Source: Candidatus Kerfeldbacteria bacterium RIFCSPLOWO2_02_FULL_42_19 (GTDB taxonomy: Bacteria > Patescibacteriota > Patescibacteriia > HO2-48-17). Taken from it: a stretch of 64,000 bases of DNA. The notes below the pieces were generated by a model. That model was not told the origin of the DNA. It searched no databases and was given only the letters and a program-made list of their open reading frames with translations. The position numbers were made by a program, and so were the translations under genes. The stretch spans positions 14,612 through 78,611 of the forward strand of contig MHKF01000013.1 of assembly GCA_001818315.1 (NCBI GenBank), in the 5' to 3' direction. This document shows positions 4,474-64,000 of the stretch, in pieces (position 1 is the stretch's first letter; every line of letters begins with the position of its first letter).

Positions 4474-4494
4474 AATAAAAATTCTCCATCCCTA

Positions 4495-5796
4495 TTATGA
4501 ATCTTGTTTGCTTGACTGCGCAACTTGCTCCACAAGAAAATCCACGACTTTTTGGGTGTTGAACATATTGCGTATATAACGTTCGTAGGCTTCACTTTCG
4601 ATATATTTTAAAGTCTTCGAATCGTTTTCATATCTCTTTTTTTGCACATCAATTTCTGCTGTCACTTGTTTTGCATCTACTTGAATTTTTTCCTTCAGAG
4701 CTATTTCTCGCAATACCAAAATACTTTTGACCCGCTGAAGAGCTTGCGGTTGCAAATCTTTCTGTAATTGATCCTGCGTTTTTTTAATCGTCTTCAAATA
4801 ATCATCAAATTTTCCTCCCTGCGATTCTAGCTCGGATTTAAGTTCCGCGAGTATGCGATCAATCTCTGACGTAATCAACACTTCTGGGAGTTCCCCAAAT
4901 TTCGTTCGCTCGACAACTTCGCGTAATACTTCTGTCTCCAAACGCAGACGTTCTTTGTATTCTCCTTCTTTATGGAGATTCACACGAAGTGCCTCACGCA
5001 ATTCAACGAGATTTTTATAATTCCCCAAACTTTGAGCAAAATCATCCTTCAGTTCCGGCAGCATCACTTCATATACTTCATGCACCTGCACGCGAAATTC
5101 TGCTTCTTTTCCTGCAAACTGCTGCGTATGATAGTCTTTGGGAAAACGCAATGAAAAACGTTTTTCCTCTCCACGTTGCATGCCGATGACTTGATCAGAA
5201 AAGCCGGCCACAAACGTGTCGAGATTGAGATCGATTTCTTGTTTGCGAAACGATCCGTTCTCGAGAAGCACGTTGTCTTGGAAAATATCTAAATCCGCAA
5301 GGACTTTATCCCCTTTTTGCACTGCACGCTGGACCAATTTTTGTGAGGCTCGCAATCTGCGTAATGATTCCAATGTTTTTTCTACTTCTTTATCCTGCAC
5401 GTGAATACTTTTTTTCGCAGTGCGAAAGTTGCGATATGCTCCGAGCTCCACTGTTGGATAGACAGAAATGATCGCGTTATATATCAATGGATTGCCGGGT
5501 GCGAGTTTTTCTGGCGTCACATTCGGTGAGCCTATGATTTCAAGACGCTCTTGCGTTAAAGCACGAGGGAGCGTATCCATCACCGCTTCACGAAAAGCCT
5601 CTTCATAGATTTTTACATTTCCAACATGACGCTTTAAGATATCCATCGGCACGTGCCCAGGACGAAAACCGGGAATTTTCACTTCCTGTGACATGTGCTG
5701 CGCGGCTTTTTGCACAAATGGCTCGACTTCTTGAATCGTGAGTTCCACGCGAAGTTCTACTTGCGATTTCGGAAGATTTTTGTGAGTAACATTCAT
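4495..5796 (-). CDS. tig: trigger factor (ribosome-associated chaperone, PPIase)
   Basis: 433 aa. The N-terminal ribosome-binding domain carries the conserved GFRPGHVP motif, and the overall domain order matches Tig. Confidence 0.9.
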   Translation of the reverse strand: MNVTHKNLPKSQVELRVELTIQEVEPFVQKAAQHMSQEVKIPGFRPGHVPMDILKRHVGNVKIYEEAFREAVMDTLPRALTQERLEIIGSPNVTPEKLAPGNPLIYNAIISVYPTVELGAYRNFRTAKKSIHVQDKEVEKTLESLRRLRASQKLVQRAVQKGDKVLADLDIFQDNVLLENGSFRKQEIDLNLDTFVAGFSDQVIGMQRGEEKRFSLRFPKDYHTQQFAGKEAEFRVQVHEVYEVMLPELKDDFAQSLGNYKNLVELREALRVNLHKEGEYKERLRLETEVLREVVERTKFGELPEVLITSEIDRILAELKSELESQGGKFDDYLKTIKKTQDQLQKDLQPQALQRVKSILVLREIALKEKIQVDAKQVTAEIDVQKKRYENDSKTLKYIESEAYERYIRNMFNTQKVVDFLVEQVAQSSKQDS

Positions 5797-5801
5797 GCTG
5801 A

Positions 5802-6332
5802 TTATCGTGAAAATTTCTTGCGATAGAGCGCTTGACTTTCTTTAACGATCGCGAGTGCTTTTTTGCGATCCTCAAATGCCGTTACTTCTACAATTTTGTT
5901 CTGCAAAAGCTTGTAAGTTTCGAAAAAGTGTTTGATTTCTTTCTTGGTGTGCTCACTCACGTCGGATATATCTTTCAAAGTTTCGAAATGAGGATCTTTC
6001 ATTGGCACCGCAATAATTTTATCATCCTGATCGCCGCTATCCGTCATAAGAGCTGCGCCTACGGGGCGCACTTCCGCAAGAATTCCTGGAAACAAGGGAT
6101 AGGTCGTCAAAAGAATGACATCCAACGGATCGTCGTCGTGCCACCAAGTTTGCGGCGCAAATCCATAATCAAAAGGATAGAATTGAGAAGTGTAACTCAC
6201 GCGATCAAGTTTAATCAAACCAGTTTTTTTATCGATTTCATATTTGTTCGTAGAGCCCTTCGGAATTTCTATGACTGCGTAAAACGCTTCCGGCGCTTTT
6301 TCACCTAGGGGGACGTCGTGAAGAAGATTCAT
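5802..6332 (-). CDS. ppa: inorganic pyrophosphatase (family I)
   Basis: 176 aa with the family I signature DGDPLDVL-like block (HDDDPLDVILL) and FDYGFAPQTW. Confidence 0.9.
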   Translation of the reverse strand: MNLLHDVPLGEKAPEAFYAVIEIPKGSTNKYEIDKKTGLIKLDRVSYTSQFYPFDYGFAPQTWWHDDDPLDVILLTTYPLFPGILAEVRPVGAALMTDSGDQDDKIIAVPMKDPHFETLKDISDVSEHTKKEIKHFFETYKLLQNKIVEVTAFEDRKKALAIVKESQALYRKKFSR

Positions 6333-10520: not shown

Positions 10521-11114
10521 CATAACATTTGTAAGAAAACTTCTGCGATGCCAGAGACATGGCCCGTGTTGCTTGAGTCGTCTACGATGTAACAATGTAC
10601 CGTAACCTTTGTGTTGTTCGAATGCGTATTGCGGATAGTGATACGATGCCATACGCATCATAGCATCACGACTGACCTTCGCAATGATAGAAGCCGCAGC
10701 AATACTATATACGTTTTGATCACCATCAACGATGCTTTGTCCTGGGAAAGTAAATTTTTGATCAAGGCCGTCAATGAAAGTAAATTCCGGAATGAGATGC
10801 AACGTTGTCACTGCTTGTATCATAACCTCCCGATTCGCCCAGCTAATACCGCGTGCGTCGATTGTTGTAGCGCTCAGAGAATATACAGACCAAGCAAGCG
10901 CGACTCTCGCGATGCGTTTATAAAGATGCTCACGCTGTTGTGGATTGAGTGACTTTGAATCACGAATGTTACGCAGTCTCGGTGTGCGCGGCAACACAAC
11001 AGCTGCAGCCACAATAGGTCCCGCCAAGGCACCGCGACCGACTTCGTCGACTCCTGCGATATATTGATACCCCTGTTTAAAAAACTTATTTTCGAGTTGC
11101 TGTCTTGGATGCAT
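10515..11114 (-). CDS. rnhB: ribonuclease HII
   Basis: AGVDEVGRGALAGPIVAAAVVL and DSKSL motifs. The start is probably MHPRQQ at 11114, which makes the gene overlap the gdhA 3' end by 29 nt. Confidence 0.85.
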   Translation of the reverse strand: MHPRQQLENKFFKQGYQYIAGVDEVGRGALAGPIVAAAVVLPRTPRLRNIRDSKSLNPQQREHLYKRIARVALAWSVYSLSATTIDARGISWANREVMIQAVTTLHLIPEFTFIDGLDQKFTFPGQSIVDGDQNVYSIAAASIIAKVSRDAMMRMASYHYPQYAFEQHKGYGTLLHRRRLKQHGPCLWHRRSFLTNVMV

Positions 11115-12408
11115 ACGGAGATGAAAGCGTATTCGGCGACAGACCCCATTGCGCTTGCGTTGCCTCAGCAACGCGTTCGAGCGCAACAATATATGCCGCG
11201 GTACGAAGTTCGGTTTGAAATCGTTTGTGTATATCCCAAACATGATCAAATGCTGTGGCCATGACTTCTTCGAGCTTTGCAAAGACAACATCTTTACTCC
11301 AGTGTTCTTTATGTTTGTTTTGTTCCCATTCAAAATAAGAAACAGTCACGCCGCCGGCATTTGCAAGAATGTCTGGCACAACAATGATGCCTTTTCGAGC
11401 AAGTATTTCATCTGCGTCTGGCGTCGTCGGTCCATTAGCAAGTTCCATAATGACCTGCGCGCGGATCCTTTCAGCATTCTCATGTGTAATTTGATTTTCA
11501 ATCGCCGCTGGAATGAGAATATCGCAATCACACTCCAAAAGTTCTGCATTAGAAATCGCCTGATAATGTTCGGCATCCCAACGAGTGCCGTCAAAGTACG
11601 CCCCAGATGCAAATTCTTTTTCCTTTTTCGTGCGTGCAAGATATTCAGCATTCATACCGAGACCTCGCATATCTAGAATACCTCCGTGAGAATCTGACAC
11701 TGCAATCACTCGAAATCCAGCTTCGGTCAGGAGTCGTACCATCGTTGCGCCGGCGTTGCCAAAACCCTGAATAGCAACGCGCGCGTTGTTTGGGAGTTGT
11801 AATTTTTTCCTGAGCGAATGCAGAACGAAAAATCCACCTTGTGCTGTTGCAGTATCTCGACCTTCCGAACCTCCTGCATGTAAAGGCTTGCCCGTGACTA
11901 CAGCCGGTGTCGGCGCACCGACAGAGGTACTGTACTCGTCTGCGATCCATGCCATAATCTCTGGTGTTGTATATACATCCGGCGCTGGAACATCTTTATC
12001 TGGACCAATCACGTCTTGTAACGCTCTGGTAAATCCACGCGACAGTCGCTCAAGTTCGCCTCGAGATAATTGACGTGTATCCACAGTAATCCCGCCTTTT
12101 CCGCCACCGAATGGAATGCCAACAACAGCACATTTCCATGTCATCCACGCCGCGAGAGCCTTGATTTCATCCATATTTGTTTCGGGATGAAAACGTAATC
12201 CCCCTTTGTACGGCCCACGCGCATTATTGTATTGCACACGAAATCCATGAAAAATGCGCGGTTGTCCGTTATCCATACGCACAGGGAAAAAAACTTCAAT
12301 CGTGCGGTTCGGTCGCTTGAGTATTTCGTAGAGATCGTCGTCGATTTTATGAAGTGTTGTAGCCTTTTCCAATTGCTGGAGAGCGTGTTCAAAGGGGTTG
12401 TATGACAT
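11086..12408 (-). CDS. gdhA: NAD(P)-specific glutamate dehydrogenase, with a C-terminal tail derived from a repeat TIR
   Basis: 440 aa with the K-x-GGGKGG catalytic block (GIPFGGGKGGITVD) and the Rossmann motif GFGNAGA. The last 18 aa or so (GLSPNTLSSPYASKTATRK) are encoded by the solo TIR at 11131-11160. Confidence 0.9.
   Translation of the reverse strand: MSYNPFEHALQQLEKATTLHKIDDDLYEILKRPNRTIEVFFPVRMDNGQPRIFHGFRVQYNNARGPYKGGLRFHPETNMDEIKALAAWMTWKCAVVGIPFGGGKGGITVDTRQLSRGELERLSRGFTRALQDVIGPDKDVPAPDVYTTPEIMAWIADEYSTSVGAPTPAVVTGKPLHAGGSEGRDTATAQGGFFVLHSLRKKLQLPNNARVAIQGFGNAGATMVRLLTEAGFRVIAVSDSHGGILDMRGLGMNAEYLARTKKEKEFASGAYFDGTRWDAEHYQAISNAELLECDCDILIPAAIENQITHENAERIRAQVIMELANGPTTPDADEILARKGIIVVPDILANAGGVTVSYFEWEQNKHKEHWSKDVVFAKLEEVMATAFDHVWDIHKRFQTELRTAAYIVALERVAEATQAQWGLSPNTLSSPYASKTATRK
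11131..11160 (+). repeat. solo MITE TIR (GAAAGCGTATTCGGCGACAGACCCC) embedded in the gdhA 3' end
   Basis: Identical to the right-hand TIR of the full-length elements. Confidence 0.65.
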
Positions 12409-30514: not shown

Positions 30515-30698
30515 GGGACTGTCGTCGAATACGCTTTCGTCTGTGAAAGTGAATTTCAATCATAGAAAAAAGAGGAGGAAGACTCTCGCTTTCGAAGCAC
30601 TGACAGGGCACAGTGTGCTGAGAAAGGAGAGTCTTCCTCCTCTTTTGATGATCACGATTTCTTTTTCACAGAAGAAAGCGTATTCGGCGACAGACCCC
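30515..30698 (+). repeat. MITE-like element, type A, full length
   Basis: TIRs GGGACTGTCGTCGAATACGCTTTCGTCTGTGAAA...TTTCACAGAAGAAAGCGTATTCGGCGACAGACCCC, an 18-bp stem AAGAGGAGGAAGACTCTC, and the conserved core. Confidence 0.85.
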
Positions 30699-30761
30699 AT
30701 GAATACATTTCTGTCATTTTTTTCGACATTATTTATAATATAGATATCACGCTGTCGTGTA

Positions 30762-30777
30762 TGTTCCACGTGGAACA
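30762..30777. promoter_or_regulatory. perfect 16-bp palindrome TGTTCCACGTGGAACA (copy 1 of 4)
   Basis: Exact palindrome 170 bp upstream of the TrmB-family gene. Confidence 0.5.
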
Positions 30778-30947
30778 TTGAGTACCATGAAATTGGTTTA
30801 GCAACTAGCCCCAGGGAATGAAATTTTTTGTGCGCATGTTGAATGACCCTATGCTAAGAGCGTAAGGAAAAAACAAGTGATATGCGCTGATCAATTTCAT
30901 GGTGCACTTCAATTGTAAATTTTTAGAGAATATCGAATTGAAATACT

Positions 30948-31676
30948 ATGGATCTCGAAGTTGTACTCAAAACTCTCGGTCTTTCTGCGAAGGAGGCCAA
31001 AATTTATCTCGCTTGTTTACAGTATGGGGAGTTGAATGTATCAAAAATTGCACAGTTTTCTGGACTCAAACGTTCAACATGCTATGCAATTCTCGAGGGA
31101 CTTGTTACGAAAAAGCTTGTTATAAGTCCTACGATGTCTGACAAAAAGCGATATCATGCTGTTGAACCAGCCGAGCTTTTGTTCCACGTGGAACATCAGA
31201 AACAACTTCTCGAGCAATATCTTCCAACGTTCAATTCACTTGCATTCCAAGAGGCACCTCACTTTGGAATTCTATCTGGATCGAGTGGACTGCCGTTTCT
31301 TCAAAAACAGATAGAATCCCAATCGCTTGTGTATATTGTCGGTTCATTTCACACTGTGACTCCATTGCTGCGCAATCTGATGCTTGGATTATTCTCCCAA
31401 ATGAAGACGGGTGCCGGAAAAATACATCTGTACCTTCCTCCATTACCTCATGACATTGCTTTTTCTGAACAGCATGCCGACAATTTTCAAATACGTTTTG
31501 TTCCACGTGGAACAATTTTTGACAGTTTTAGTATTATTTCCGAATTTTTTTGCGCAACATTTATTACAAATAAAAGTGACATGCAGATCATTTTTTTAGA
31601 ACATAAAGGAATTATGAAAACATGGTGGCAGATGCTTCAGCTCATGGATAATGTTTTGTCTGTAAAAAAGGCTTAG
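30948..31676 (+). CDS. TrmB-family (winged-HTH) transcriptional regulator
   Basis: An N-terminal domain that looks TrmB-like to me (GLSAKEAKIYLACLQYGELNVSKIAQFSGLKRSTCYAILEGLVTKKLV) and a C-terminal effector domain. Confidence 0.7.
   Translation: MDLEVVLKTLGLSAKEAKIYLACLQYGELNVSKIAQFSGLKRSTCYAILEGLVTKKLVISPTMSDKKRYHAVEPAELLFHVEHQKQLLEQYLPTFNSLAFQEAPHFGILSGSSGLPFLQKQIESQSLVYIVGSFHTVTPLLRNLMLGLFSQMKTGAGKIHLYLPPLPHDIAFSEQHADNFQIRFVPRGTIFDSFSIISEFFCATFITNKSDMQIIFLEHKGIMKTWWQMLQLMDNVLSVKKA
31180..31195. promoter_or_regulatory. palindrome TGTTCCACGTGGAACA (copy 2, inside the TrmB CDS, encodes FHVEH)
   Basis: Exact 16-mer. Confidence 0.5.
31499..31514. promoter_or_regulatory. palindrome TGTTCCACGTGGAACA (copy 3, inside the TrmB CDS in a different codon phase, encodes VPRGT)
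   Basis: Exact 16-mer. Confidence 0.5.
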
Positions 31677-31702
31677 AAATATGCCATGTTTCGGAAAACT
31701 AA

Positions 31703-31872
31703 GGGACTGTCGTCGAATGTTATTTCTTGTTCAATATACAAAACAAAGGAGGCGGATGAGAACTTTCGAAGCACTGACAATGCACAGTGTGCTTCGAAAG
31801 TTCTCATCCGCCTCCTCTTTTGCTTATGACTAAAATTCATTTTCACGAGTGAAAGCGCATTCGGTGACAGTC
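31703..31872 (+). repeat. MITE-like element, type A
   Basis: TIRs GGGACTGTCGTCGAATG...GCGCATTCGGTGACAGTCC. Stem AAGGAGGCGGATGAGAAC/GTTCTCATCCGCCTCCTCTT around the core CTTTCGAAGCACTGACAATGCACAGTGTGCTTCGAAAG. Confidence 0.85.
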
Positions 31873-31954
31873 CACTCAAGGATACCGCGAAGCAATGCAA
31901 TCTCATTTGAGTTGATTCGATATATTCAACGAGTGCCGAAGGTGTTTTGCAATA

Positions 31955-32118
31955 GGGGTCTGTCGCCGAATACGCTTTCGTCTGTGAAATCGTAGAATTT
32001 CGTGACAGAACCGCTGAATAAATTTTGAGGTTTATATAGAATATAAGCTGAAAAATTTTGAAGCGATGCTGGCCGAAATGCTACGATTGCAACAGAAATG
32101 GTATTCGGCGACAGACCC
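31955..32118 (+). repeat. MITE-like element, type B (second copy)
   Basis: Differs from the 9641-9803 copy at only a few positions. Confidence 0.85.
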
Positions 32119-32253
32119 AATAGGGAGATATTGAGCTTTGATATCAATGAACCTTCGCGCAAAAAGCTGATGCTGTATTCTCAACTTCAAAACGCATATT
32201 TTTTACATTTGTGGCAAAAAATTGTTTTGTATCGTATTCATTTCAAACAGATT

Positions 32254-32269
32254 GTTCCACGTGGAACAT
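32254..32269. promoter_or_regulatory. palindrome TGTTCCACGTGGAACA (copy 4)
   Basis: Exact 16-mer, 580 bp downstream of the TrmB gene. Confidence 0.5.
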
Positions 32270-33783: not shown

Positions 33784-33912
33784 GACGCTGTCGCTGGATA
33801 ACGTTTCTTATACAATAAAAAAAGAGGGGGAAGATTCTCCCTTTCGAAGCACTAACACTGCACAGTGTGCTGAGATAGGGAGAATCTTCCCCCTCGTTGT
33901 TATTATGACAAG
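33784..33912 (+). repeat. MITE type A, degenerate copy (eroded TIRs, intact stem and core)
   Basis: Stem GAGGGGGAAGATTCTCCC/GGGAGAATCTTCCCCCTC flanks the core CTTTCGAAGCACTAACACTGCACAGTGTGCTGAGATAG. Confidence 0.55.
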
Positions 33913-33962
33913 TTAATTTTTCCAAGTCATCTACATCTTCTCATAGAGCAACTCTGAAGAGT

Positions 33963-36565: not shown

Positions 36566-38770
36566 TTATACAAGAGGCTCTTCAAAATCACCCTCCTCAT
36601 CAGACGCATTTGCATTGGTAGTATGTGTATTTGATCCGTTTCCAATCTTATCCATCTCGGCGATTTCTTTTTCTACATCTGTTGTTGGAGTTGCGTACTT
36701 CGTGCGACTTGCGGTCATCATTTTTTGACGGAGTTCGGCGGGGAAGACCGGATCTGGAACATCGATCGTCTTTGCAGAAAAGGCAGGAGTCACAACACCG
36801 TCGATAGACATCTTGAGATACATTTCGCGAATTCCAAGATTAATAATATCATATCCACTGAATCGCGGAGCAAATTCGTTGGCAATGTAATTGGCGTCAT
36901 CGGCGCCCATGCGCAGGGTAATAAGCGAACCTACATTCCCAAACACCGTCTCGCGCGTGGAAGCAAGTAACTGCCCAAGATACTGATGTGAAATCGTGAG
37001 GTTCAAGCGATATTTACGAGCTTCCGAGAGAATGTTATCAAATGTTTTTGTCGCAAAATTCTGAAATTCATCAACATAGAGATAAAAATCTTTCCGTTTT
37101 TCTGCGCTTAAAAATGCACGTGCCATGGCGGCTTGTTCGATTTTGGTGATGATGAGCGAACCAAGGAGCGCTGCATTTTCTTCACCGAGTTTTCCTTTTG
37201 AAAGTTCCACAAGCAGAATCTTTTCGTTATTCATAATTTCTTCAAGATCCACCTTGTTTTTGGATTGTGCTACGATATTCCGTACCATTTCGTTAGAGAG
37301 GAATTGTCCTAATTTGTTGACGAGCGGCACGATTGCTTCGTTATCAAATTTTTCCGACCAACTCGAAAATTCATTTGCCCAGAATTTTTTGACGACATGA
37401 TCTTGGATGACTGTAATCACTTGCTGGCGATACGCGCGATCTGTAAGCATCTTTTGAATGCCCATAATCGTCGCTTTCGGATAATCCAATAGCGCAAGAA
37501 CAGTAAATCGGAATACATGCTCAATTTTCGGTGACCAATCAGCGCCGAAAAATTTTTTAAACACTTCAATTAACCCCTGCGTTGTTTGTTGTTTGAATTC
37601 TCGCGACACGTTTGCTACAGGGTTAAAGGCAATCGGATAATCTAAATCCGCTGGACTAAAGAGTACGAGATCACTGATGCGCCTTTCCGGAACATGCGCG
37701 AGTACCGCCTGCACGAGATCACCGTGAGGATCAATCACACACACGCCTTTGTGCATCTTGATATCATCGGCAATAAGTTTTTCAAGGAGTTTGGATTTTC
37801 CGGTGCCGCTTTTACCTACAACATACAGATGCCGACGACGATCTTCGCGTTTAATTCCGAATTCCATCTGCTGTCCACGAAAATTTGTGACACCGAAAAT
37901 CGAAATATCCTGTGTCGGTGTATTTTCCGTAGAAGGTAAATGCATAGGCGGTTCAGCACGTCGAGAATAAAGCCAGTTCACGCCACTGATCTTGGACGCA
38001 GCATCTGGCGCGTGAAAGAGTGCTGCGATTTCGTCAGTGTTAAATACGCCAGTGGGTTGCTCTGAGTGACTAAAATAAGCATCGACCGCCGTCTGCACAG
38101 CAGGAGCCGTCTTTACAACGATTTGGAGTTGTTCTGTAGAAAACGGACTAAAAATGCTTTCAAAAGAAGCGTTGTGCATGTCAATGTGCGATGCGTTATT
38201 TGGAAAATAGAGGATGCGAATTGTCGTATTAAACTTCGGTTTTACTACCTGAATCTCCTGTTTTTCTGCAAAGCCATATAGACCGCTCGCGCGTGTGCCT
38301 TCGCCGGTGAGTGATTCATCTACTGTGCGGAGAATCAGCTGAAAAAAAACTGCATCCGTAGCTGGAATCTGACCCAAGACATTGAAAAAAGCATTCAGGG
38401 GATCCGCGCTCATCGTGCGCGCCGAGCGCAGTGAAAAAGCTTCGCTGCCTTTGAGTTGGACTTGAAAACCGACCGCTTGCGATGGAAGTCGGCTGAGTTG
38501 ATCATAATCGTCCATTGCTTCGAGCGAAGCATCTGGGAAGAGTGCATAAAAAAATGACCGTACCGTCGCAACGAGTACGTTGGGAGCGATCATATAAAAA
38601 TTCATGATGCCGCGAATTTGCACAATTTCGAGGCCGAGTGTTTCTTTATGATCCGACAGCGGCAAAAAAATACTGTAAAAAAAAGTTTCAAATTTTTCGA
38701 TTTGATTCAGAACGTTGGTATGCGCGCTCTCAAAAGGAAAACGCACACGAAGCATGACGGGTTGTTTCAT
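36566..38770 (-). CDS. large soluble ATPase of the VirD4/TraG/TrwB (DUF87/AAA_10) family
   Basis: About 735 aa. Walker A VVGKSGTGKSKLLEKL, then CVIDPHGDL, Walker B YLYVDEFQNF, and a C-terminal TraG-D_C-like region. No N-terminal TM helices. Confidence 0.6.
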   Translation of the reverse strand: MKQPVMLRVRFPFESAHTNVLNQIEKFETFFYSIFLPLSDHKETLGLEIVQIRGIMNFYMIAPNVLVATVRSFFYALFPDASLEAMDDYDQLSRLPSQAVGFQVQLKGSEAFSLRSARTMSADPLNAFFNVLGQIPATDAVFFQLILRTVDESLTGEGTRASGLYGFAEKQEIQVVKPKFNTTIRILYFPNNASHIDMHNASFESIFSPFSTEQLQIVVKTAPAVQTAVDAYFSHSEQPTGVFNTDEIAALFHAPDAASKISGVNWLYSRRAEPPMHLPSTENTPTQDISIFGVTNFRGQQMEFGIKREDRRRHLYVVGKSGTGKSKLLEKLIADDIKMHKGVCVIDPHGDLVQAVLAHVPERRISDLVLFSPADLDYPIAFNPVANVSREFKQQTTQGLIEVFKKFFGADWSPKIEHVFRFTVLALLDYPKATIMGIQKMLTDRAYRQQVITVIQDHVVKKFWANEFSSWSEKFDNEAIVPLVNKLGQFLSNEMVRNIVAQSKNKVDLEEIMNNEKILLVELSKGKLGEENAALLGSLIITKIEQAAMARAFLSAEKRKDFYLYVDEFQNFATKTFDNILSEARKYRLNLTISHQYLGQLLASTRETVFGNVGSLITLRMGADDANYIANEFAPRFSGYDIINLGIREMYLKMSIDGVVTPAFSAKTIDVPDPVFPAELRQKMMTASRTKYATPTTDVEKEIAEMDKIGNGSNTHTTNANASDEEGDFEEPLV

Positions 38771-38796
38771 ATACATTACTTAACAAGAAAAATAGT

Positions 38797-38975
38797 GGAC
38801 TGTCAATGAATGCGTTAATGCAGTGCGACTATCGCCGAATACTATTTCTTGTCCAATGCACAAAGCAAAAGAGGAGGAAGACTCTCCTTTCTCAGCACAC
38901 TGTGCAGTGTCAGTGCTTCGAAAGCGAGCGTCTGCCTCCTCTTTTTTCTATGATTCACATTCATTGCTTACAATT
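38797..38975 (+). repeat. MITE type A, copy with degenerate or duplicated TIRs
   Basis: Left end GGACTGTCAATGAATGCG plus a second partial GACTATCGCCGAATAC. Stem AAGAGGAGGAAGACTCTCC, conserved core, eroded right TIR. Confidence 0.65.
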
Positions 38976-39107
38976 CGGCTCCCAGTACGGAACGCGTCAT
39001 TTCTCAACACAAAGACCCTTCCTGTATTGAGTCCTGAGACTTGCTACAAGAAGGGTCTTAAAAATTACATACTCTCACTTAGGTTATCCGAAACATTTTT
39101 GCGTACA

Positions 39108-41489
39108 TCACGATTTTTTTACGATCTTCGCGATGAGCGCTTGCGTTTCCGGAGTGCCCACAAGCGAGAGAAAAGCTTCGCGTTCGAGATCAAGTAGATC
39201 CTGTTCAGTGACGAATCTACCGAGGTGGGTAGTCCCGCCACAGAGAATGTATGCAAGTCGACGGATGATGGTTGCTGAATGCGAGTCAAACGGAACCTCG
39301 AGCGCGATGATCACCCCTTCTGCGAGCGGCTGAGAGAGTGAGCATCCCGGCAGGTTGAAAAGAAACGGTTTCCGCGGCAGGTATAGCTGCTGTCCATTGA
39401 GCCAAAGCGCTTCTTGGCAAGCACGAAACAACACGTGCTCCTGACCGAGTCCACGCGAATGCACGATGAGATCATCGCATCGCAAGAATCCAAGATCTCG
39501 CGCGTGCACTGCGTGTTTGGAGCGAGCACACATTACGTGCAGCAGAAGCACTGGCTTTATGAACTGCCACGCCACCTCAACTGTCCAACCCGCGCCTGTC
39601 ATCACCTGAAACGGAATTCCCTCCAGTGCGTTCCGCAACGTACGCATGCATCCGCCCGCTGCCGCTACCAGACCCACATCCTTTTCCGGTTGACCCTGAA
39701 ACAGCCAGAAGTTTGCGACTGTGCGAGTACTTGCAAGGATGAGCTCACTACCAAGACCAAGTGCGAGGCTATGCGGTGCGACGACGACAGGCACTCTCGC
39801 ATAGGTCATCCTCTGCGTGAGATCCTGTGCCGTCACCAAAAACCGTTCGATCTCGGCGAAGTTTCCTGCCTGAGCCTGCTCCAGTAGCCACAAAAGATTT
39901 GCACCTGCAGAAAACGCCTTCTTGTGCGCATGTCCGACTATCACCGGGAGGTCGTCTGCTTCGGCAATGTTGAGTGCATCTTCTAACACATCAACGCATT
40001 GGAGAGTGAACGGATTCACCACACCCGAGTGGAATTCTACCAGCACCACATCGAGATCACCCAGACGGTATGCTGTCGCATCATTATTTTGACTGATGAT
40101 GTTTCCTCCATCCTCCCTTCGCAGTTCTTCGAGATCGATTATTTCTTCAGTCTCGGGAATGGACTGCCATACGCCATTACTTTGTCGTACACTCTGTGGT
40201 TTCTGTGGGGTACTATAGATGTGCACGCCAGCTTCTCGATACCAATCAGGTATCGCTGTCGCTGTAAAATAACCGACCTGCTCTGCACCGGCAATCACTG
40301 CAACACGCCCTATCATTTCACAGATCTGCAGAGGGCCGATGGGCCAGTTGAACCCCCATCGCATAGCCTTGTCAATGGAAAGTAGATCCTCACAGACTTT
40401 CCCCACGAGCCAGAGCGCGTAGGTAAGGACCGGGTAAAAGCAGTTCCGAGCAAATTCGGCTGCTGCATCTGGCCCCTGTAGAAGATGCTGGCGCGCTTTG
40501 TGAGCATCGCCCTGCTGCGTGAGTAGCGATGCTTCGCTCAGAGACGGGTACCTGTTCGAAGGTTGTTCAGGAAGGTACGGAACGTACATGTTGCTCTCAA
40601 AGTCGAAGACGAACTTCTGCTTGCCCTCACGAGCGTAGAACCCACGCTGATTCAGAGCGTTGCGACCCGTATGACAGAGCTTCACAAGTCGCTCGACGAA
40701 TTCGATGGGGTGGAAGTAGTGAAGGAACGGGTCGGGCTCGAGGTGCTCATAGTCGAACACGTTACTCGCGACCGGTTCCAGTAACTGCAGACCGACGATG
40801 TCTGCCGTGTTGAGCGGTTTCCAACCGAACAGTACCTGGAACACCGCATCAACATCATTGACCAGCATGCCCTTTGGCCAGTGAAAGAAAGGAATCTGCA
40901 TGGCCATGACGCCAAGTCGGTTCCCGATGAAGTTCGGCGTGTTAAAAACTTCTATAACTCCTTTCTGTAACACATCACGCCCGAACTCCATGAAGGCTGT
41001 GAAGAGTTGCGGATCTGTTGCAGTCCCCGCACAGACCTCGAGTAACGGCAGAACGGCAACTGGATTGAAGAAATGCGTGACGAACGTATTTTCACGCAAG
41101 TCTTGTGAAGTGCCCGCAACGATCTCATCAATGTTGAGGCCGCTCGTGTTGGAGCTCACGATAGCTTCTGCTCTGCGGTGCTGATCGATGAGTCTGAAGA
41201 CACCTTGCTTCACCTTGAGCTCTTCATAGACTGCCTCGACGATCCAATTGGCATCCGCGAGTCGCTTGTCATCAACACCGATTGTACACGGTCGAATGCG
41301 AAGCAGGTCTTGCGCAGAGAATACTGCACCGCGTTCAAGTAACTTCTCCCATGCGAGTTGAGAAACTTGCACGTCACCTTGCTGGACATCGAAGAGATCC
41401 ACATCAAACCACTGGGCAAGCCAGCCGGCAATCTGTGATCCCATCGTGCCCGCGCCGATAACGGCGACACGACGAATGTTGAGTTTCAA
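39108..41489 (-). CDS. fused 3-hydroxyacyl-CoA dehydrogenase (N-terminal) / enoyl-CoA hydratase (C-terminal), GC-rich
   Basis: 793 aa. N-terminal NAD Rossmann motif VAVIGAGTMGSQIA and HCDH core (EAVYEEL..SNTSGL..HFFNP..NRLG). C-terminal crotonase fold with KKAFSAGANL. GC is about 55%. Confidence 0.8.
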   Translation of the reverse strand: MKLNIRRVAVIGAGTMGSQIAGWLAQWFDVDLFDVQQGDVQVSQLAWEKLLERGAVFSAQDLLRIRPCTIGVDDKRLADANWIVEAVYEELKVKQGVFRLIDQHRRAEAIVSSNTSGLNIDEIVAGTSQDLRENTFVTHFFNPVAVLPLLEVCAGTATDPQLFTAFMEFGRDVLQKGVIEVFNTPNFIGNRLGVMAMQIPFFHWPKGMLVNDVDAVFQVLFGWKPLNTADIVGLQLLEPVASNVFDYEHLEPDPFLHYFHPIEFVERLVKLCHTGRNALNQRGFYAREGKQKFVFDFESNMYVPYLPEQPSNRYPSLSEASLLTQQGDAHKARQHLLQGPDAAAEFARNCFYPVLTYALWLVGKVCEDLLSIDKAMRWGFNWPIGPLQICEMIGRVAVIAGAEQVGYFTATAIPDWYREAGVHIYSTPQKPQSVRQSNGVWQSIPETEEIIDLEELRREDGGNIISQNNDATAYRLGDLDVVLVEFHSGVVNPFTLQCVDVLEDALNIAEADDLPVIVGHAHKKAFSAGANLLWLLEQAQAGNFAEIERFLVTAQDLTQRMTYARVPVVVAPHSLALGLGSELILASTRTVANFWLFQGQPEKDVGLVAAAGGCMRTLRNALEGIPFQVMTGAGWTVEVAWQFIKPVLLLHVMCARSKHAVHARDLGFLRCDDLIVHSRGLGQEHVLFRACQEALWLNGQQLYLPRKPFLFNLPGCSLSQPLAEGVIIALEVPFDSHSATIIRRLAYILCGGTTHLGRFVTEQDLLDLEREAFLSLVGTPETQALIAKIVKKS

Positions 41490-41769
41490 TGTGCACCTCC
41501 TTATATTCAGACTGTCTGAGAACTGCCAGTGTGGCGATTCTTGAAAATTTCGTTAACTAACCTTAGTCTCGAAATATTCAAAAAGTAATTGTCAGACAGT
41601 CTGTGCGAGATTCTGTAAATAACCTGCTCAAAAAACATCAGTACAACTTTAGGACTCTTCTTACAAAAAAAGAGGCCGTACACAAAGCTGACTGTCTGTC
41701 TTTAAAGACATGGCTATCCTACTAAAGAAATAGATTGTGTGCAAGATCACCTCATGGAGTCGAAAAACA

Positions 41770-41815
41770 GACAGAGACCTCGAGAAAAAAATTCTACGAG
41801 GTCTCTCTGAGATCT
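41770..41815 (-). terminator. rho-independent terminator after the 41842-43869 gene
   Basis: On the minus strand, AGAGACCTCG...CGAGGTCTCT hairpin followed by GTCTGTTTTTCG. Confidence 0.5.
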
Positions 41816-41841
41816 CTTATGATACCTTTCGCTCATCGACC

Positions 41842-43833
41842 TTACCGCTGCCTGAGTAAAAAGTTAATGCCTTTGGTTTGTTCATCTGCTTTTACCGTGA
41901 CTCCGGCTGCAGAAGAAGCATCTGATGCGTCGTTGTAATATTCTGTTTCGTATCCAGTACTTGCCACATATAGTTTATAGGTCCCCGCAGCCAGGCCATC
42001 CAAAATATAATATCCATTCTCATCCGTATACGCATAGTTCGATTTACCATACACCCTCACAGGGTATCCGGAAAGCGGCAGATTATTTGCTTCATCCCAA
42101 ACATATCCACTCACAGAACCTGCTAGTACAAGCTGCATATCCACTTGTCTTTGTTTACCGGCATCCAAAGTCTTCGTCACAATACGCTCTACATAATCAG
42201 TTGTCTGTACCCGAATCCGATATTTTCCTGCTTTCAACCCTTGCATCAGATAATATCCGTCGCTGTCCGTTGTTGTCGTTGTATACCCTTCGTCTTTTTC
42301 TGTATCGACAGAATATATCGTTACCGTCGCATTATCTACTGGCGCATTTTGAGAGGTCACGCGCCCAAATACCGCAGATGCCGTCTTTAAAGTATATTTT
42401 TTATCGGAAATGTTTGCATCAATCGTTACACTTTCCTTTTTCAAAACAATATACCCATCTTTCATAATTGTCAGTCGGTATTTTCCTAAAGCGATTTCAG
42501 AAAAATTAAAATTTCCGTTGCCATCGCTTGTTGCTTTTGCAACCCACGTATTCGTTCGAGGTGTATTCCGACTGTAAAGATACAGTGTCGCGTTATCGAG
42601 ACCCGCGTTATTTTTATCTCGGACTTGTCCACTGAAACTAAAACTTGAATCAAGACTAAAATTTCGACCCGATGTCGTTTCTCCAGACTTCACGACAATA
42701 TTGTACCGTTTTTCCGTCACAAACCCGGTTTTTGAAACCGTCAGTTTGTAACGCTTATTCGGACGCAAATTGGAAAAAGTATATGCGCCGTTATTGCCCG
42801 ACGTTGTGGTATATGTGTGTCCACTGCCATCATTAGCTGTCATCGTCGCATTAGCGATCGCGGTTGTTCCGTCATCTTCATATACAAATCCCGTGATGCT
42901 TCCACTTCGAGCTAGTGACACGTTACCTGCGCTCACCGTCGATTCGTCAGCGGTAATGCTTACGAGTCTTTTCTTCGCAATGTATCCGTTGGTACTTACT
43001 TCTAATGTATACGTGCCAACTGCCGTGCCATTGTAATCTGTAATATCAAAGACGGAGAGAGTAAAATCACCGTTTGCATCCGTTGTTGCTGTGTAGGTAT
43101 AGTAGGTTGAATTTTGATCCGACATCACAACTGTTGCGCCAGACAGTGGATTACTATTTTTATCCGTCACTTTCCCCGTTACACGACTTGCGCCTGTGAG
43201 TGTTACATTCTGCGTGTAGGTCTGTCCATCTTGTACGAGATTGATATCGTTGAGGATTTTTCCAAAATATCCTTGTCGGATCACATACATATCATACAAA
43301 CCTGTGGCTGTTCCTACGCCTGTGCCATAGGGAGTAGGCGCTACATAATACGAACCATCGGGTGTGCTTATTGAACCTCCAGAGCTGCGTATGGATCCAT
43401 CGACATTGTAGAGCGTCACACTCGCTTCATAGATCGGCGTCGTACCATTGGAAGCATACACATGACCCGTGAGCAGTGCGCGACGCGTCAAGGTAAAATT
43501 CACTCCAGTTTTATTTTCGCCGCTAGCGACCGTGACTGATTGTTCTGAAACAATAAACGTTGCTGTCGGTTCATCAGCGGTACTGCGGTAATTGTATACG
43601 GTATACGTACCGGCATTATCAACGGTAATAGAGTAGGCTCCGGCTGCATCGGTCGAATCGCCATCAGTCGTGCCGAGCGTTGCATCCTTCGCAAATATAA
43701 ACATGGTCGTGACTGGAGTTCCATCGGTGTGAGTGACGGTGCCTGAAATACTGATTGCGAGAACGTCGTGCCAGAAAAATATACCAACGAGGGTGAAAAA
43801 ACTAAAAAAAGTAGAAAGTAAAAATCTTTTCAT
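41842..43833 (-). CDS. secreted protein with tandem carboxypeptidase-regulatory-like / Cna-B-like beta-sandwich domains
   Basis: Signal peptide MKRFLLSTFFSFFTLVGIFF, then at least 6 repeats of roughly 90 aa rich in T/G/Y/V with a G-x-V/Y-x-F periodicity (ISGTVTHTDGTPV, LTGHVYASNGTPI, VTGKVTDKNSNPL, ITGFVYEDDGTAI, FSGQVRDKNNAGL, VFGRVTSQNAPV, VSGYVWDEANNLPL). Confidence 0.6.
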   Translation of the reverse strand: MKRFLLSTFFSFFTLVGIFFWHDVLAISISGTVTHTDGTPVTTMFIFAKDATLGTTDGDSTDAAGAYSITVDNAGTYTVYNYRSTADEPTATFIVSEQSVTVASGENKTGVNFTLTRRALLTGHVYASNGTTPIYEASVTLYNVDGSIRSSGGSISTPDGSYYVAPTPYGTGVGTATGLYDMYVIRQGYFGKILNDINLVQDGQTYTQNVTLTGASRVTGKVTDKNSNPLSGATVVMSDQNSTYYTYTATTDANGDFTLSVFDITDYNGTAVGTYTLEVSTNGYIAKKRLVSITADESTVSAGNVSLARSGSITGFVYEDDGTTAIANATMTANDGSGHTYTTTSGNNGAYTFSNLRPNKRYKLTVSKTGFVTEKRYNIVVKSGETTSGRNFSLDSSFSFSGQVRDKNNAGLDNATLYLYSRNTPRTNTWVAKATSDGNGNFNFSEIALGKYRLTIMKDGYIVLKKESVTIDANISDKKYTLKTASAVFGRVTSQNAPVDNATVTIYSVDTEKDEGYTTTTTDSDGYYLMQGLKAGKYRIRVQTTDYVERIVTKTLDAGKQRQVDMQLVLAGSVSGYVWDEANNLPLSGYPVRVYGKSNYAYTDENGYYILDGLAAGTYKLYVASTGYETEYYNDASDASSAAGVTVKADEQTKGINFLLRQR

Positions 43834-56350: not shown

Positions 56351-56424
56351 GGTGGCTGGGGGCAGGATCGAACTGCCGACGCCAGGATTTTCAGTCCTGC
56401 GCTCTACCACTGAGCTACCCAGCC
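56351..56424 (-). tRNA. tRNA-Phe(GAA)
   Basis: Reverse complement GGCTGGGTAGCTCAGTGGTAGAGCGCAGGACTGAAAATCCTGGCGTCGGCAGTTCGATCCTGCCCCCAGCCACC. Confidence 0.8.
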
Positions 56425-56431
56425 AAGCGCG

Positions 56432-56505
56432 TGGGCATACCTGGAGTTGAACCAGGGACCTCAGTCTTATCAGGACTGCGCTCTAACCAACTGAGCTATA
56501 TGCCC
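56432..56505 (-). tRNA. tRNA-Ile(GAT)
   Basis: Reverse complement GGGCATATAGCTCAGTTGGTTAGAGCGCAGTCCTGATAAGACTGAGGTCCCTGGTTCAACTCCAGGTATGCCCA. Confidence 0.8.
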
Positions 56506-56726
56506 GAGAGTACACTCAAAGTAACAAAAAAAATATATTTTGTAAACGATCAGAAAAAGAGCCTTCCGGCTCTTTTTCTTTTTTTTATCAACTGAAAGTG
56601 ATAGAATCCTTTTCCCAATAATGGGTTCAAACATCGATTCATTCCATCAATGAAGTAAACTTGCATTGATGTCGACCACGACTTGTAAGCATACTTCGAG
56701 AGTATGCTCCAAGTATTACTCCTTAG

Positions 56727-58730
<2,004 letters not shown>

Positions 58731-62897: not shown

Positions 62898-64000
62898 TTA
62901 GCCCTGCGCATGAGCTAAAGTTTGTGCGTGTCTGTGCGTGAGAGCGTCTTCAAGTCTAAGACTTAAAATGCGTGAGGCTCCATTGTGACTGAGAGTCACA
63001 CCGTACAACGTATTGGCGTGATGCATAGTGACACGATTGTGTGTAATCACAATGAACTGTATTTTTTGTGAAAGCTTTTTTAGGATAGCGGCGAATGTTT
63101 CAGAATTCGCTTCATCGAGTGCAGCTTCGACTTCATCCAGTACTACGAACGGTGCGGGATTTGTTTCCAAGATCGCAGCAAGTAATGCTAAAGCAGTTAA
63201 TGCTTTTTCTCCGCCAGAGAGTGCTTGTACGTTTTTCGTCTTTTTGCCCGGCGGGATTGCGAAAATTTCGATACCTGAGATAATTTTTTTCTGTTTGTTA
63301 AGAATTTTCTGCACAAGAGGGAGATGTTCTGCATCGAGTGTGGCTTCTTGCTTTGCCTGTTCTACAAGCGCATGGCTCGTTGGATTTTCGCCCTCTCCAA
63401 AAGTCACACTAGGCACTGCATTCTCTGCAGCTTCATTTTCTTTTGCATCTTTTTCTTCGGTGACTAACTTCAACTGTGCTTCGCCTCCGCCAAACAGAAC
63501 TTTAAAATATGTATGAAAATGTTTGTCTATGAAACGGAACGATTGAGAAAATTGTTTGTGGATCGTCACATCGAGTTCTTCGATAATATGTTCCAAATCT
63601 TTAAGCGCAGTCTGCAGATCATCCAGCTGTTTTGAGAGGAATTCGTAACGCTCATGAGTATCGTTATATTCTTTCGTGATATCCGGATCAATACCGCCAA
63701 TAAGCTCGAGTTGATGCGCGAGATGCTTTATATCACTCTCGAGTTCATGAAAATTTTCGATTGTTTTCTGAAATTTTTGTGCGGCGTGGAGAGTAGCTTC
63801 CGTAAGTTCCCGACGCATTTCTTCTAGTAAGTCTTCCTTTTTTGTGAGGATGCGTGTGTGTTCTATGCGTGCAGCTTCCAATTTCTGATTGACGGCATTC
63901 AAAGCATTTTGCACATCACGCGCTTCTTGCTGCAATGCAATCAACATATCTTTTTTCTCCTGTTCTTTTGTATGGAACTTGTCGATTTCCTTATACAATT
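62898..64000 (-). CDS. smc: chromosome segregation protein SMC, C-terminal part (gene continues beyond the window end)
   Basis: Coiled-coil region, then the ABC signature LSGGEKALTALALLAAI, Walker B VVLDEVEAALD, and H-loop ITHN. Confidence 0.8.
   Translation of the reverse strand, partial: LYKEIDKFHTKEQEKKDMLIALQQEARDVQNALNAVNQKLEAARIEHTRILTKKEDLLEEMRRELTEATLHAAQKFQKTIENFHELESDIKHLAHQLELIGGIDPDITKEYNDTHERYEFLSKQLDDLQTALKDLEHIIEELDVTIHKQFSQSFRFIDKHFHTYFKVLFGGGEAQLKLVTEEKDAKENEAAENAVPSVTFGEGENPTSHALVEQAKQEATLDAEHLPLVQKILNKQKKIISGIEIFAIPPGKKTKNVQALSGGEKALTALALLAAILETNPAPFVVLDEVEAALDEANSETFAAILKKLSQKIQFIVITHNRVTMHHANTLYGVTLSHNGASRILSLRLEDALTHRHAQTLAHAQG

What the first reader, a model, noticed from the sequence alone, without database searches (positions are those of the whole stretch)
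30762..32269. Four exact copies of a 16-bp palindrome TGTTCCACGTGGAACA clustered in and around a TrmB-family regulator gene
A perfect 16-mer palindrome should essentially never recur by chance in 64 kb. Here it occurs four times within 1.5 kb, at 30762, 31180, 31499 and 32254, and each copy has a conserved extra flank (ttGTTCCACGTGGAACAt). Two copies lie inside the regulator's coding sequence, in two different codon phases. That means the DNA site is what is conserved, not the peptide it encodes. The other two flank the gene, and each lies 60-140 bp from a MITE copy. The array could be an autoregulatory operator set for the TrmB-like protein. It could be a set of recombination or partition sites. 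It could also be the ends of a small mobile unit that carries its own regulator.
Basis: seen in the sequence. Interest (0 to 1): 0.65.

Follow-up and report, generated by a model that had tools for sequence, protein, structure and literature searches.

The report
Chromosome partition (parS) site cluster
The four identical 16-base palindromes match the known bacterial centromere site parS, here clustered in and around a small DNA-binding-protein gene of an uncultivated groundwater bacterium; this is a known kind of element in a little-studied lineage.

Summary
TGTTCCACGTGGAACA occurs exactly four times (30762, 31180, 31499, 32253), and nothing within 3 mismatches occurs elsewhere in the 64 kb. 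The 16-mer is identical to the experimentally defined parS2/parS3 of Pseudomonas aeruginosa and to the P. putida parS. It fits the general chromosomal parS consensus.

In a scan of 185,579 species genomes, close pairs of this exact 16-mer occur in many phyla. In 40 of 98 non-CPR hits a Pfam-verified ParB gene lies in the same 8-kb block, usually within about 1.2 kb.

The window comes from a Candidatus Kerfeldbacteria (CPR) chromosome. An orthologous locus whose protein is only 51% identical (dS about 1.4) keeps all four sites exactly, the two intragenic ones at the same codons.

The best reading is a parS centromere: ParB loading sites. It is not an operator set of the TrmB-like protein and not the ends of a mobile element.

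Two things are unusual. No parA, parB or dnaA lies within about 40 kb. A TrmBL2-like gene sits in or beside the parS cluster in ten distinct CPR loci.

I could not verify that this genome encodes ParB. Verdict: new member of a known kind, moderate interest.

The parts
30762..30777 (.). parS-1. An exact TGTTCCACGTGGAACA, intergenic, 186 nt upstream of the ATG of the TrmB-like gene.
   Evidence: exact match. An exact site lies at the corresponding position in L011, 148 nt upstream of the ATG.
31180..31195 (.). parS-2. Lies inside the TrmB-like coding sequence (codons 78-83, read as LFHVEH, phase 1).
   Evidence: L011 has a site at the same offset (+232). L212 and L213 have one at the same aligned codons. 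In the AF2 model it falls at the start of the long helix 75-99.
31499..31514 (.). parS-3. Lies inside the TrmB-like coding sequence (codons 184-189, read as FVPRGT, phase 2).
   Evidence: L011 has a site at the same offset (+551). In the model it falls at the end of strand 181-184 and the loop that follows.
32253..32268 (.). parS-4. Intergenic, 577 nt downstream of the stop codon. It has been pushed away from the gene by two MITE insertions.
   Evidence: In L011 the fourth site lies 173 nt after the stop and there are no MITEs between.
30948..31676 (+). Gene for a 242-aa TrmB-family protein with TrmBL2-like architecture: winged helix, long helix, then an alpha/beta C-terminal domain. It hosts two parS sites and is flanked by the other two.
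   Evidence: Pfam PF01978, E = 3e-14. PDB profile search gives TrmB 3QPH at 1.9e-9 and TrmBL2 at 2e-7. The AF2 model has pLDDT 89. Foldseek's best match is TrmBL2 at 1e-12 over the full length. dN/dS is 0.29 against the L011 orthologue.
30515..30700 (.). MITE copy upstream of parS-1. It is an insertion, not part of the centromere function.
   Evidence: Terminal inverted repeats 30515-30553 / 30659-30697 (I3). The family recurs about 10 times in the window and is absent from the L011 locus.
31703..31877 (.). MITE copy between the gene's stop codon and parS-4.
   Evidence: D1, D2, D4, I5. Absent from L011.
31955..32121 (.). Second MITE copy between the gene's stop codon and parS-4.
   Evidence: I6: arms 31956-31979 / 32095-32118. 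Absent from L011.
62898..63998 (-). The 3' part of an SMC-family gene, 921 aa in full on longer contigs. It is a candidate condensin that would be loaded at ParB-parS. It lies 31 kb from the cluster, and the functional link is only inferred.
   Evidence: Pfam SMC_N on the window fragment and on the full-length protein in L017 (E = 5e-71). Its neighbour is rnc.

Best explanation
The four palindromes are chromosomal parS sites, and together they form the centromere-like region of a Candidatus Kerfeldbacteria (CPR/Patescibacteria) chromosome.

Inferred mechanism, from established ParABS biology: dimers of the CTP-dependent clamp ParB recognise each 16-bp site through their helix-turn-helix domains, close around the DNA and slide onto the flanks. 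Four sites within 1.5 kb would then nucleate one dense partition complex. That complex marks the chromosome for segregation (by ParA, if the genome has one) and for loading of SMC condensin.

Two sites happen to lie inside the coding sequence of a TrmB/TrmBL2-like gene. The protein tolerates the encoded peptides (LFHVEH at the start of a long helix, VPRGT in a strand-loop). The gene is caught inside the centromere and has stayed linked to it.

Shown here: sequence identity to a proven parS; clustering and local uniqueness; exact conservation at near-saturated synonymous divergence; association of the same 16-mer clusters with parAB in other phyla.

Inferred, not shown: ParB binding in this organism, proximity to the origin, and SMC loading.
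For: 1. Identity to proven sites. The 16-mer equals P. aeruginosa parS2/parS3 and the P. putida parS, and fits TGTTNCACGTGAAACA (PMC4368675 Table 1; PMC7022226 Table 1).

2. Clustering and local uniqueness. There are four exact copies in 1.5 kb and no other copy within 3 mismatches in the 64 kb. There is none within 2 mismatches in about 20 kb of extensions on both sides.

3. Selection on the DNA. In L011 the orthologous protein is 51% identical, dS is 1.43 and dN/dS is 0.29. All four 16-mers are nonetheless exact, and the two intragenic ones are at identical offsets.

4. Same 16-mer next to parAB elsewhere. A scan of GTDB species genomes for two exact copies 290-318 nt apart hit at least 120 blocks in many phyla. 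A local ParB HMM found ParB in 40 of 98 non-CPR blocks and ParA in 32 of 98, mostly within about 1.2 kb of the sites. The seed proteins were verified as ParB_N + HTH_ParB + ParB_C and as ParA by Pfam.

5. Shared flank preference. CPR and non-CPR sites both prefer A at -2 and A/T at -1, which suggests one reader protein.

6. Chromosomal context. The window carries a 16S rRNA gene, tRNAs and housekeeping genes. An SMC-family gene lies nearby.
Against: No ParB, ParA or DnaA gene was found in the window or in 10 kb on either side. The cognate protein is therefore unverified for this genome.

None of 22 CPR blocks that hold such arrays has ParB or ParA in the same 8 kb, against 40 of 98 in other phyla (Fisher p = 8e-5).

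I found no paper on ParB or parS in CPR, and a ParB profile search gave no CPR-labelled hit.

Origin proximity is untested. Cumulative GC skew falls across the window without a turning point. This suggests only that oriC lies beyond the right end, more than 40 kb from the cluster.

A TrmB-like gene recurs beside the cluster in ten CPR loci. Passive linkage can explain this, but it does not have to.
Confidence: 0.85

Rival explanations
1. The sites are parS, and the TrmBL2-like gene embedded among them is functionally coupled to the centromere. Its transcription might be set by ParB occupancy and spreading, so that it reports chromosome or partition status. Alternatively its product might be an accessory DNA-binding or chromatin protein of the partition complex.
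For: A TrmB-family gene lies inside or within about 1 kb of the parS cluster in ten distinct CPR loci: the window, L011, L212, L213, L214, L215, L216, L217, L020 and L022.

Seven of 267 family proteins carry parS-encoded peptides, against 0.015 expected from shuffling.

One locus was picked without regard to parS (P0162, L217). It still has 3 sites within 2 kb of the gene and none elsewhere in 20.7 kb.

The module sits in different neighbourhoods in the window, L212 and L217.

The protein's best structural match is TrmBL2, an archaeal chromatin protein.
Against: A gene flanked by sites of a compact centromere stays linked to it without any functional tie.

The family is large (3634 representatives), and most members show no parS peptide.

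L012 and L013 have no sites nearby.

Thirteen of 142 ORFs near CPR arrays match Wzy_C, the gene that holds the arrays in those blocks, and only 2 of the 142 match TrmB.
Confidence: 0.12
2. The palindromes are the binding sites (operators) of the TrmB-like protein itself, either as classical autoregulation or as a CPR-specific centromere-binding protein that replaces ParB.
For: Genes for centromere-binding proteins and autoregulators usually sit beside their sites, and here the gene sits within them.

No ParB was found near any CPR array.

The linkage recurs in ten loci.
Against: The 16-mer is exactly the canonical ParB site of distant phyla, with the same flank preference. A winged-helix protein converging on the identical 16 bp is unlikely.

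The site-to-ATG distance varies from 18 to 186 nt among the loci that have an upstream site. In L217 all sites are downstream, and in L020 all lie 480-1849 nt upstream.

Arrays of 6-17 sites occur in Wzy_C genes with no TrmB-like gene in the block.

From general knowledge, the known TrmB operator (TGM, TATCAC-N5-GTGATA) is unrelated.
Confidence: 0.04
3. The palindromes are recombination sites or the ends of a small mobile unit that carries the regulator gene.
For: The gene plus its sites occur in different neighbourhoods in different genomes. MITEs lie close by.
Against: The sites do not bound a repeated unit, and there are four to six per locus, two of them inside the gene.

No transposase or integrase lies next to the locus.

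The locus is syntenic between the window and L011.

The MITEs have their own, unrelated terminal repeats and are absent from L011.
Confidence: 0.01

Closest known systems
parS2/parS3 of Pseudomonas aeruginosa, part of the cluster of four parS closest to oriC, and the parS of P. putida (ParABS system)
   Same: The 16-bp sequence TGTTCCACGTGGAACA is identical (PMC4368675 Table 1; PMC7022226 Table 1). A small cluster of four sites acts as the centromere.
   Different: In Pseudomonas the four sites are the ones closest to oriC (PMC4368675 title), and weaker sites occur elsewhere on the chromosome. Here no parAB or dnaA lies within about 40 kb, all four sites are perfect, and two lie inside one small gene. 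ParB binding is proven there and only inferred here.
Bacillus subtilis parS (TGTTNCACGTGAAACA), including the site inside the spo0J coding sequence
   Same: A parS embedded in a protein-coding gene. The sites recruit ParB (Spo0J), which loads SMC. The consensus is from PMC7022226. The intragenic spo0J site is from my own knowledge (Lin and Grossman 1998).
   Different: In B. subtilis the sites are spread over the origin-proximal part of the chromosome, and the host gene is parB itself. Here four sites are packed into 1.5 kb and the host gene is a TrmB-like regulator.
Dense parS clusters of Myxococcus xanthus (22 sites) and Corynebacterium glutamicum (10 sites)
   Same: Many near-identical parS sites grouped in one region (PMC7022226 Table 1). 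The M. xanthus consensus TGTTCCACGTGGAACG differs from this one by one base.
   Different: In the review's table all of those sites are counted in the ori domain. Adjacency to parAB is absent here.
TrmBL2 / TrmB of Thermococcales (for the host gene only)
   Same: Same architecture and size: a winged helix-turn-helix, a long helix and an alpha/beta C-terminal domain. Foldseek gives E = 1e-12 to 5BQT/5BPD/5BOX and 4e-9 to 3QPH. The PDB profile search agrees.
   Different: Sequence identity is only 12-16%, and TM-scores are low (about 0.35) because the domains are oriented differently. This is a bacterial (CPR) family. No DNA-binding data exist, and nothing ties TrmB proteins to parS in the literature I searched.

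Membership tests
Chromosomal parS (centromere of the ParABS system) | A 16-bp inverted repeat that matches the consensus TGTTNCACGTGAAACA | tested here: met
   All four copies are TGTTCCACGTGGAACA. This is identical to published, mutationally tested parS2/parS3 of P. aeruginosa and to the P. putida parS.
Chromosomal parS (centromere of the ParABS system) | Few copies, clustered, and rare elsewhere in the genome | tested here: inconclusive
   Four copies lie in 1.5 kb. No other copy within 3 mismatches occurs in the 64 kb, and none within 2 mismatches in about 20 kb of flanking extensions. The rest of the genome, roughly 1 Mb by my estimate, could not be read.
Chromosomal parS (centromere of the ParABS system) | A cognate ParB (usually with ParA) encoded in the same genome | tested here: inconclusive
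   None was found in the window or within 10 kb on either side, by motif search, Pfam and a local ParB/ParA HMM. That covers only about 84 kb. Attempts to sample the rest of the genome failed.
Chromosomal parS (centromere of the ParABS system) | Location in the origin-proximal part of the chromosome | tested here: inconclusive
   No dnaA lies within about 40 kb. Cumulative GC skew falls across the window without a minimum. The 16S gene and many other genes are on the minus strand. Together these suggest that the origin lies beyond the right end. The distance is unknown.
Chromosomal parS (centromere of the ParABS system) | Sites conserved in relatives beyond the neutral expectation | tested here: met
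   L011 keeps all four exactly, with dS = 1.43 and 51% protein identity. L212 and L213, whose proteins are 26% identical, have a site at the same aligned codons.
Chromosomal parS (centromere of the ParABS system) | The same sequence is associated with parAB genes in other bacteria | tested here: met
   Of 98 non-CPR blocks that hold clustered exact copies, 40 carry ParB and 32 carry ParA, mostly within about 1.2 kb of the sites. Seed proteins were verified by Pfam.
Chromosomal parS (centromere of the ParABS system) | Specific binding and CTP-dependent loading of ParB at the site | not testable with these tools
   This needs EMSA, DAP-seq, ChIP-seq or clamp-loading assays with the organism's ParB.
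Operator of a TrmB-family regulator | Sites at a fixed position relative to the regulated promoter, found wherever the regulator family occurs | tested here: not met
   The upstream site lies 186, 148, 28, 182 or 18 nt from the ATG in different loci. In L217 the sites are only downstream. Homologues L012 and L013 have no site. Arrays exist without any TrmB-like gene nearby.
MITE or transposon termini | Inverted repeats that bound a unit repeated in the genome, with target-site duplications | tested here: not met
   The palindromes are not at the ends of any repeated unit. The true MITEs nearby have different terminal repeats. The locus is syntenic in L011.
TrmB / TrmBL2 family (host gene) | An N-terminal TrmB winged helix followed by a long helix and a C-terminal alpha/beta domain | tested here: met
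   PF01978, E = 3e-14. 3QPH at 1.9e-9. AF2 pLDDT 89. Full-length Foldseek match to TrmBL2 at 1e-12.

The most novel reading that the evidence does not exclude
In a set of CPR/Patescibacteria lineages the centromere is not organised around parAB. It is organised around a TrmBL2-like winged-helix gene that sits inside the parS cluster. Under this reading the protein is a dedicated centromere factor: an accessory chromatin protein of the partition complex, a regulator whose expression is gated by ParB loading on its own gene, or in the extreme case the parS reader itself. More broadly, CPR bacteria would place their parS arrays inside coding sequences as a rule. Here that is two sites in a regulator gene. 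In Moraniibacteriota and relatives it is 6-17 sites inside a Wzy_C-type membrane-protein gene, read in all three frames.
Probability: 0.15. Interest if true: 0.7.

Novelty: new member of a known kind. Interest (0 to 1): 0.4.

Why it matters
The element itself is ordinary: parS sites are the best-known bacterial centromeres. Three things give it modest value.

First, it shows that an uncultivated CPR bacterium (Kerfeldbacteria) uses the canonical parS sequence, letter for letter. I found no paper in the searchable library on ParB or parS in this radiation. Canonical parS sites can serve as a landmark in fragmented metagenome assemblies and as a ready-made handle for ParB-based labelling.

Second, it is a clear example of selection acting on DNA inside a coding sequence. 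The same 16 bp is kept in two reading frames while the rest of the gene has diverged to saturation at synonymous sites.

Third, two patterns suggest that centromere organisation in CPR may differ from the textbook arrangement. One is the repeated linkage of the cluster to a TrmBL2-like gene. The other is the absence of parAB next to any CPR parS array in my sample (0 of 22 blocks, against 40 of 98 in other phyla). Both can be tested directly on complete genomes.

Tried and rejected
1. A search of the species-genome collection with the TrmB-like protein found no relative. The source species is not among the representatives.

2. I extended the window by 10 kb on each side by looking up the edge genes. 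The left side holds IF2, RbfA, NrnA, ClpP, RNase Y, HU and L19. The right side holds SMC, RNase III, NusB, L32, TIM and GyrA. There is no parA, parB, dnaA or further parS.

3. I used the window's MITE terminal repeat as a genome-specific probe in metagenome contigs (72 loci, 471 kb) to sample the rest of the genome. A ParB/ParA HMM and motif searches found no ParB. The one dnaA-dnaN contig (L196) belongs to a distant relative, with trigger factor only 37% identical, so it says nothing about this genome's origin.

4. A ParB core-profile search of the 5.8-billion-protein database returned only unnamed fragments and no CPR-labelled hit.

5. Five literature searches for ParB, parS or chromosome partitioning in Patescibacteria, CPR, Saccharibacteria or Parcubacteria gave nothing usable (passages read).

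6. Readings considered and rejected:
- Noc-binding site. Its consensus, ATTTCCCGGGAAAT from my own knowledge, is unrelated.
- Restriction-site palindrome. Only the CACGTG core would be explained, not 16 conserved bases.
- Terminator hairpin. Two copies are inside a coding sequence, and the palindrome has no loop.
- Chance.

7. A 38-nt block identical between the window and L011 extends parS-2. Given that 61% of same-residue codons are identical, the extra 7 codons have a chance probability of about 0.03. I did not build on it.
Full report
**1. Observation**

A search for TGTTCCACGTGGAACA allowing up to 3 mismatches finds exactly four matches in the 64-kb window. All four are exact: 30762-30777, 31180-31195, 31499-31514 and 32253-32268. 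None of 100 dinucleotide-preserving shuffles gave four matches even at up to 3 mismatches (mean 0.32).

The ORF 30948-31676(+) encodes a 242-aa protein. Its residues 7-74 match Pfam TrmB (PF01978, E = 3e-14). Sites 2 and 3 lie inside it in different phases. Site 2 reads LFHVEH at codons 78-83, and site 3 reads FVPRGT at codons 184-189. Sites 1 and 4 are intergenic, 186 nt before the ATG and 577 nt after the stop.

Three MITE copies lie in the region (30515-30700, 31703-31877, 31955-32121). They have their own terminal inverted repeats, unrelated to the palindrome.

**2. What the sequence is**

A full-text search shows that this exact 16-mer is in the literature as parS. It is the wild-type sequence of parS2 and parS3 of Pseudomonas aeruginosa, two of the four origin-nearest sites that were mutated and tested (PMC4368675 Table 1). 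It is also the parS listed for P. putida, and it is one base from the Myxococcus xanthus consensus. The general chromosomal consensus is TGTTNCACGTGAAACA (PMC7022226).

**3. Context**

The window is chromosomal. It carries a 16S rRNA gene, nine tRNAs, NusA, trigger factor, RuvB, TsaD, TrmD and the SUF genes. The TrmB-like protein is identical to a protein of Candidatus Kerfeldbacteria bacterium RIFCSPHIGHO2_02_FULL... (GCA_001818335.1), so this is a CPR/Patescibacteria genome.

No ParA, ParB or DnaA is encoded in the window. None is encoded in the 10 kb beyond either end, and no further parS-like site occurs there. The window's right end cuts an SMC-family gene, which is 921 aa in full and lies next to rnc. 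Cumulative GC skew falls across the window without a turning point. The origin is therefore probably not in the window. This is a weak inference.

**4. Conservation**

Only one close homologue of the protein exists among 5.8 billion proteins: P0002, at 51% identity. Its contig, L011, is syntenic, with a SpoIID-like gene upstream and a DUF5671 gene downstream. It carries four exact copies of the 16-mer:
- one 148 nt upstream of the ATG;
- two inside the gene at exactly the same offsets (+232 and +551);
- one 173 nt downstream of the stop.

The larger downstream distance in the window is mostly accounted for by the two MITE insertions, which L011 lacks.

The two genes have dN/dS = 0.29, with pS = 0.64 and dS = 1.43. 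The gene is therefore real, and synonymous sites are close to saturation. The 16-mers stand out as islands of complete identity in an alignment with 71% mean identity. In more distant homologues the corresponding peptide stretches are ordinary and variable. This shows that the DNA, not the peptide, is under selection.

**5. Is this 16-mer really tied to ParB?**

I scanned one genome for each of 185,579 species for two exact copies 290-318 nt apart. These came from many phyla: Acidobacteriota, Planctomycetota, Bdellovibrionota, Bacillota, Bacteroidota, Myxococcota, Patescibacteria and others.

I built local HMMs from the neighbouring ORFs. They detect ParB in 40 of the 98 non-CPR blocks and ParA in 32 of 98, mostly within about 1.2 kb of the nearest site. 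Five ParB seeds and two ParA seeds were confirmed by Pfam as ParB_N + HTH_ParB + ParB_C and as AAA_31/CbiA.

The positions flanking the 16-mer show the same preference in CPR and non-CPR sites: A at -2 and A or T at -1. This fits a single kind of reader protein.

**6. Unusual aspects**

(a) None of the 22 CPR blocks has ParB or ParA in the same 8 kb (Fisher p = 8e-5).

(b) A TrmB-family gene accompanies the cluster repeatedly.
- Seven of 267 family proteins gathered by two searches carry parS-encoded peptides (FHVE[HQ], VPRGT, CSTWN), against 0.015 expected.
- Their contigs show 2-6 exact sites in and around the gene (L212, L213, L214, L215, L216).
- In L212 and L213, whose proteins are 26% identical to the window's, one site lies at the same aligned codons as site 2.
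- A family member chosen without regard to parS (P0162, L217) has three sites within 2 kb downstream and none elsewhere in 20.7 kb.
- Another Kerfeldbacteria genome (L020) has four sites just upstream of a TrmB-family gene.
- A Moraniibacteriota genome (L022) has such a gene about 0.7 kb from a gene that holds ten sites.
- The module lies in different neighbourhoods in the window, L212 and L217.

(c) The protein models well (pLDDT 89). Its best structural match over the full length is TrmBL2, an archaeal chromatin protein, followed by TrmB. The two parS-coded peptides fall at the start of the long helix and in a strand-loop.

**7. Interpretation**

The simplest account of all this is a parS centromere. 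The cluster is bound by ParB, which loads at the four sites, spreads and organises segregation and SMC loading. These steps are inferred from established ParABS biology and are not shown here.

The TrmB-like gene is most economically explained as a gene trapped between the sites of a compact centromere. The repeated linkage keeps open a functional tie, which I put at about 0.15.

The operator reading is disfavoured for four reasons. The sequence is the canonical ParB site. The sites' positions relative to the gene vary widely. Arrays exist without any TrmB-like gene. Other family members have no sites.

The mobile-element reading fails on anatomy and synteny.

The main gap is that I could not show a ParB gene in this organism or in any CPR genome. 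The literature I could search is silent on the point.

**8. Verdict**

This is a real feature, and it is parS: a new member of a known kind in a lineage where it has not been described. Interest is moderate (0.4) because of the conserved intragenic placement and the CPR-specific organisation. Confidence in the parS reading is 0.85.

Noticed in passing
L022, L043, L056, L064, L071, L072, L086, L087, L097, L122, L123, L124, L130 (for example L071:1907-4021, minus strand): In Moraniibacteriota, Parcubacteria and Minisyncoccota genomes, arrays of 6-17 exact parS sites lie inside one long ORF of 560-720 aa that matches Pfam Wzy_C, an O-antigen-ligase-like membrane protein. In L071 the sites are read in all three frames as MFHVEH, VPRGT and CSTWN, apparently between hydrophobic segments.
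   Followed up: partly
L020-L139 (genome contigs blocks): ParB or ParA genes lie beside clusters of the exact 16-mer in 40 and 32 of 98 non-CPR blocks, but in 0 of 22 CPR blocks (Fisher p = 8e-5). Genes that recur near the CPR arrays are RbfA, NrnA-like DHH, CCA-adding enzyme, FtsH, GyrA, NusA and trigger factor.
   Followed up: partly
L119 (Granulosicoccaceae, 47-4851); L134 (Planctomycetota, 2081-3199); L060 (Bdellovibrionota, 4518-6013): Very large parS arrays. L119 has about 60 sites within 1 mismatch in 5 kb, L134 has 24 sites in 1.1 kb, and L060 has 25 sites in 1.5 kb.
   Followed up: no
window 9641, 10480, 11113, 26111, 30515, 30664, 31841, 31956, 32085, 59706: A MITE family with the terminal repeat GGGTCTGTCGCCGAATACGCTTTCGTCTGTGAAA has about ten terminal-repeat copies in the window. 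The copy at 11113-11146 overlaps the last roughly 20 codons of the glutamate dehydrogenase ORF (11086-12408, minus strand). That ORF is longer here (440 aa) than in relatives (414-423 aa).
   Followed up: partly
window 30566-30646, 31740-31820, 33818-33898: An 81-nt internal palindromic module sits inside the MITEs, and once on its own at 33795-33924. Its core, TTTCGAAGCACTGACA..GCACAGTGTGCT, is conserved while its stem arms differ between copies yet stay complementary within each copy. It could be a structured RNA or REP-like element.
   Followed up: no
window 62898-63998 (minus strand) and L017:6590-9355: The SMC-family protein is only 921 aa, and Pfam finds no hinge domain: the SMC_N match spans residues 4-897. 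It lies next to rnc, as smc does in Bacillus.
   Followed up: partly
window 56975-57057 (minus strand) and 56351-58730: An Rfam group II intron D1-D4 match (55.5 bits) lies just downstream of the 16S rRNA gene. The 16S gene is followed by tRNA-Ile and tRNA-Phe but not by a 23S gene, so the rRNA genes appear unlinked.
   Followed up: no
window 38000-42000: G+C rises to 0.49-0.50, against 0.41-0.44 elsewhere, over a 793-aa fused 3-hydroxyacyl-CoA dehydrogenase / enoyl-CoA hydratase gene (39108-41489, minus strand). It may have been acquired horizontally.
   Followed up: no
L212:1483, L213:1257, L214:10781: In three TrmB-like/parS modules one parS begins at the very next base after the gene's TAA stop codon (TAA|TGTTCCACGTGGAACA).
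   Followed up: no
L006 compared with window 31499-32253: Strain-level length variation occurs between parS-3 and parS-4: 816 nt in L006 against 754 nt in the window and in L001-L005. The difference lies in the MITE-bearing spacer.
   Followed up: no
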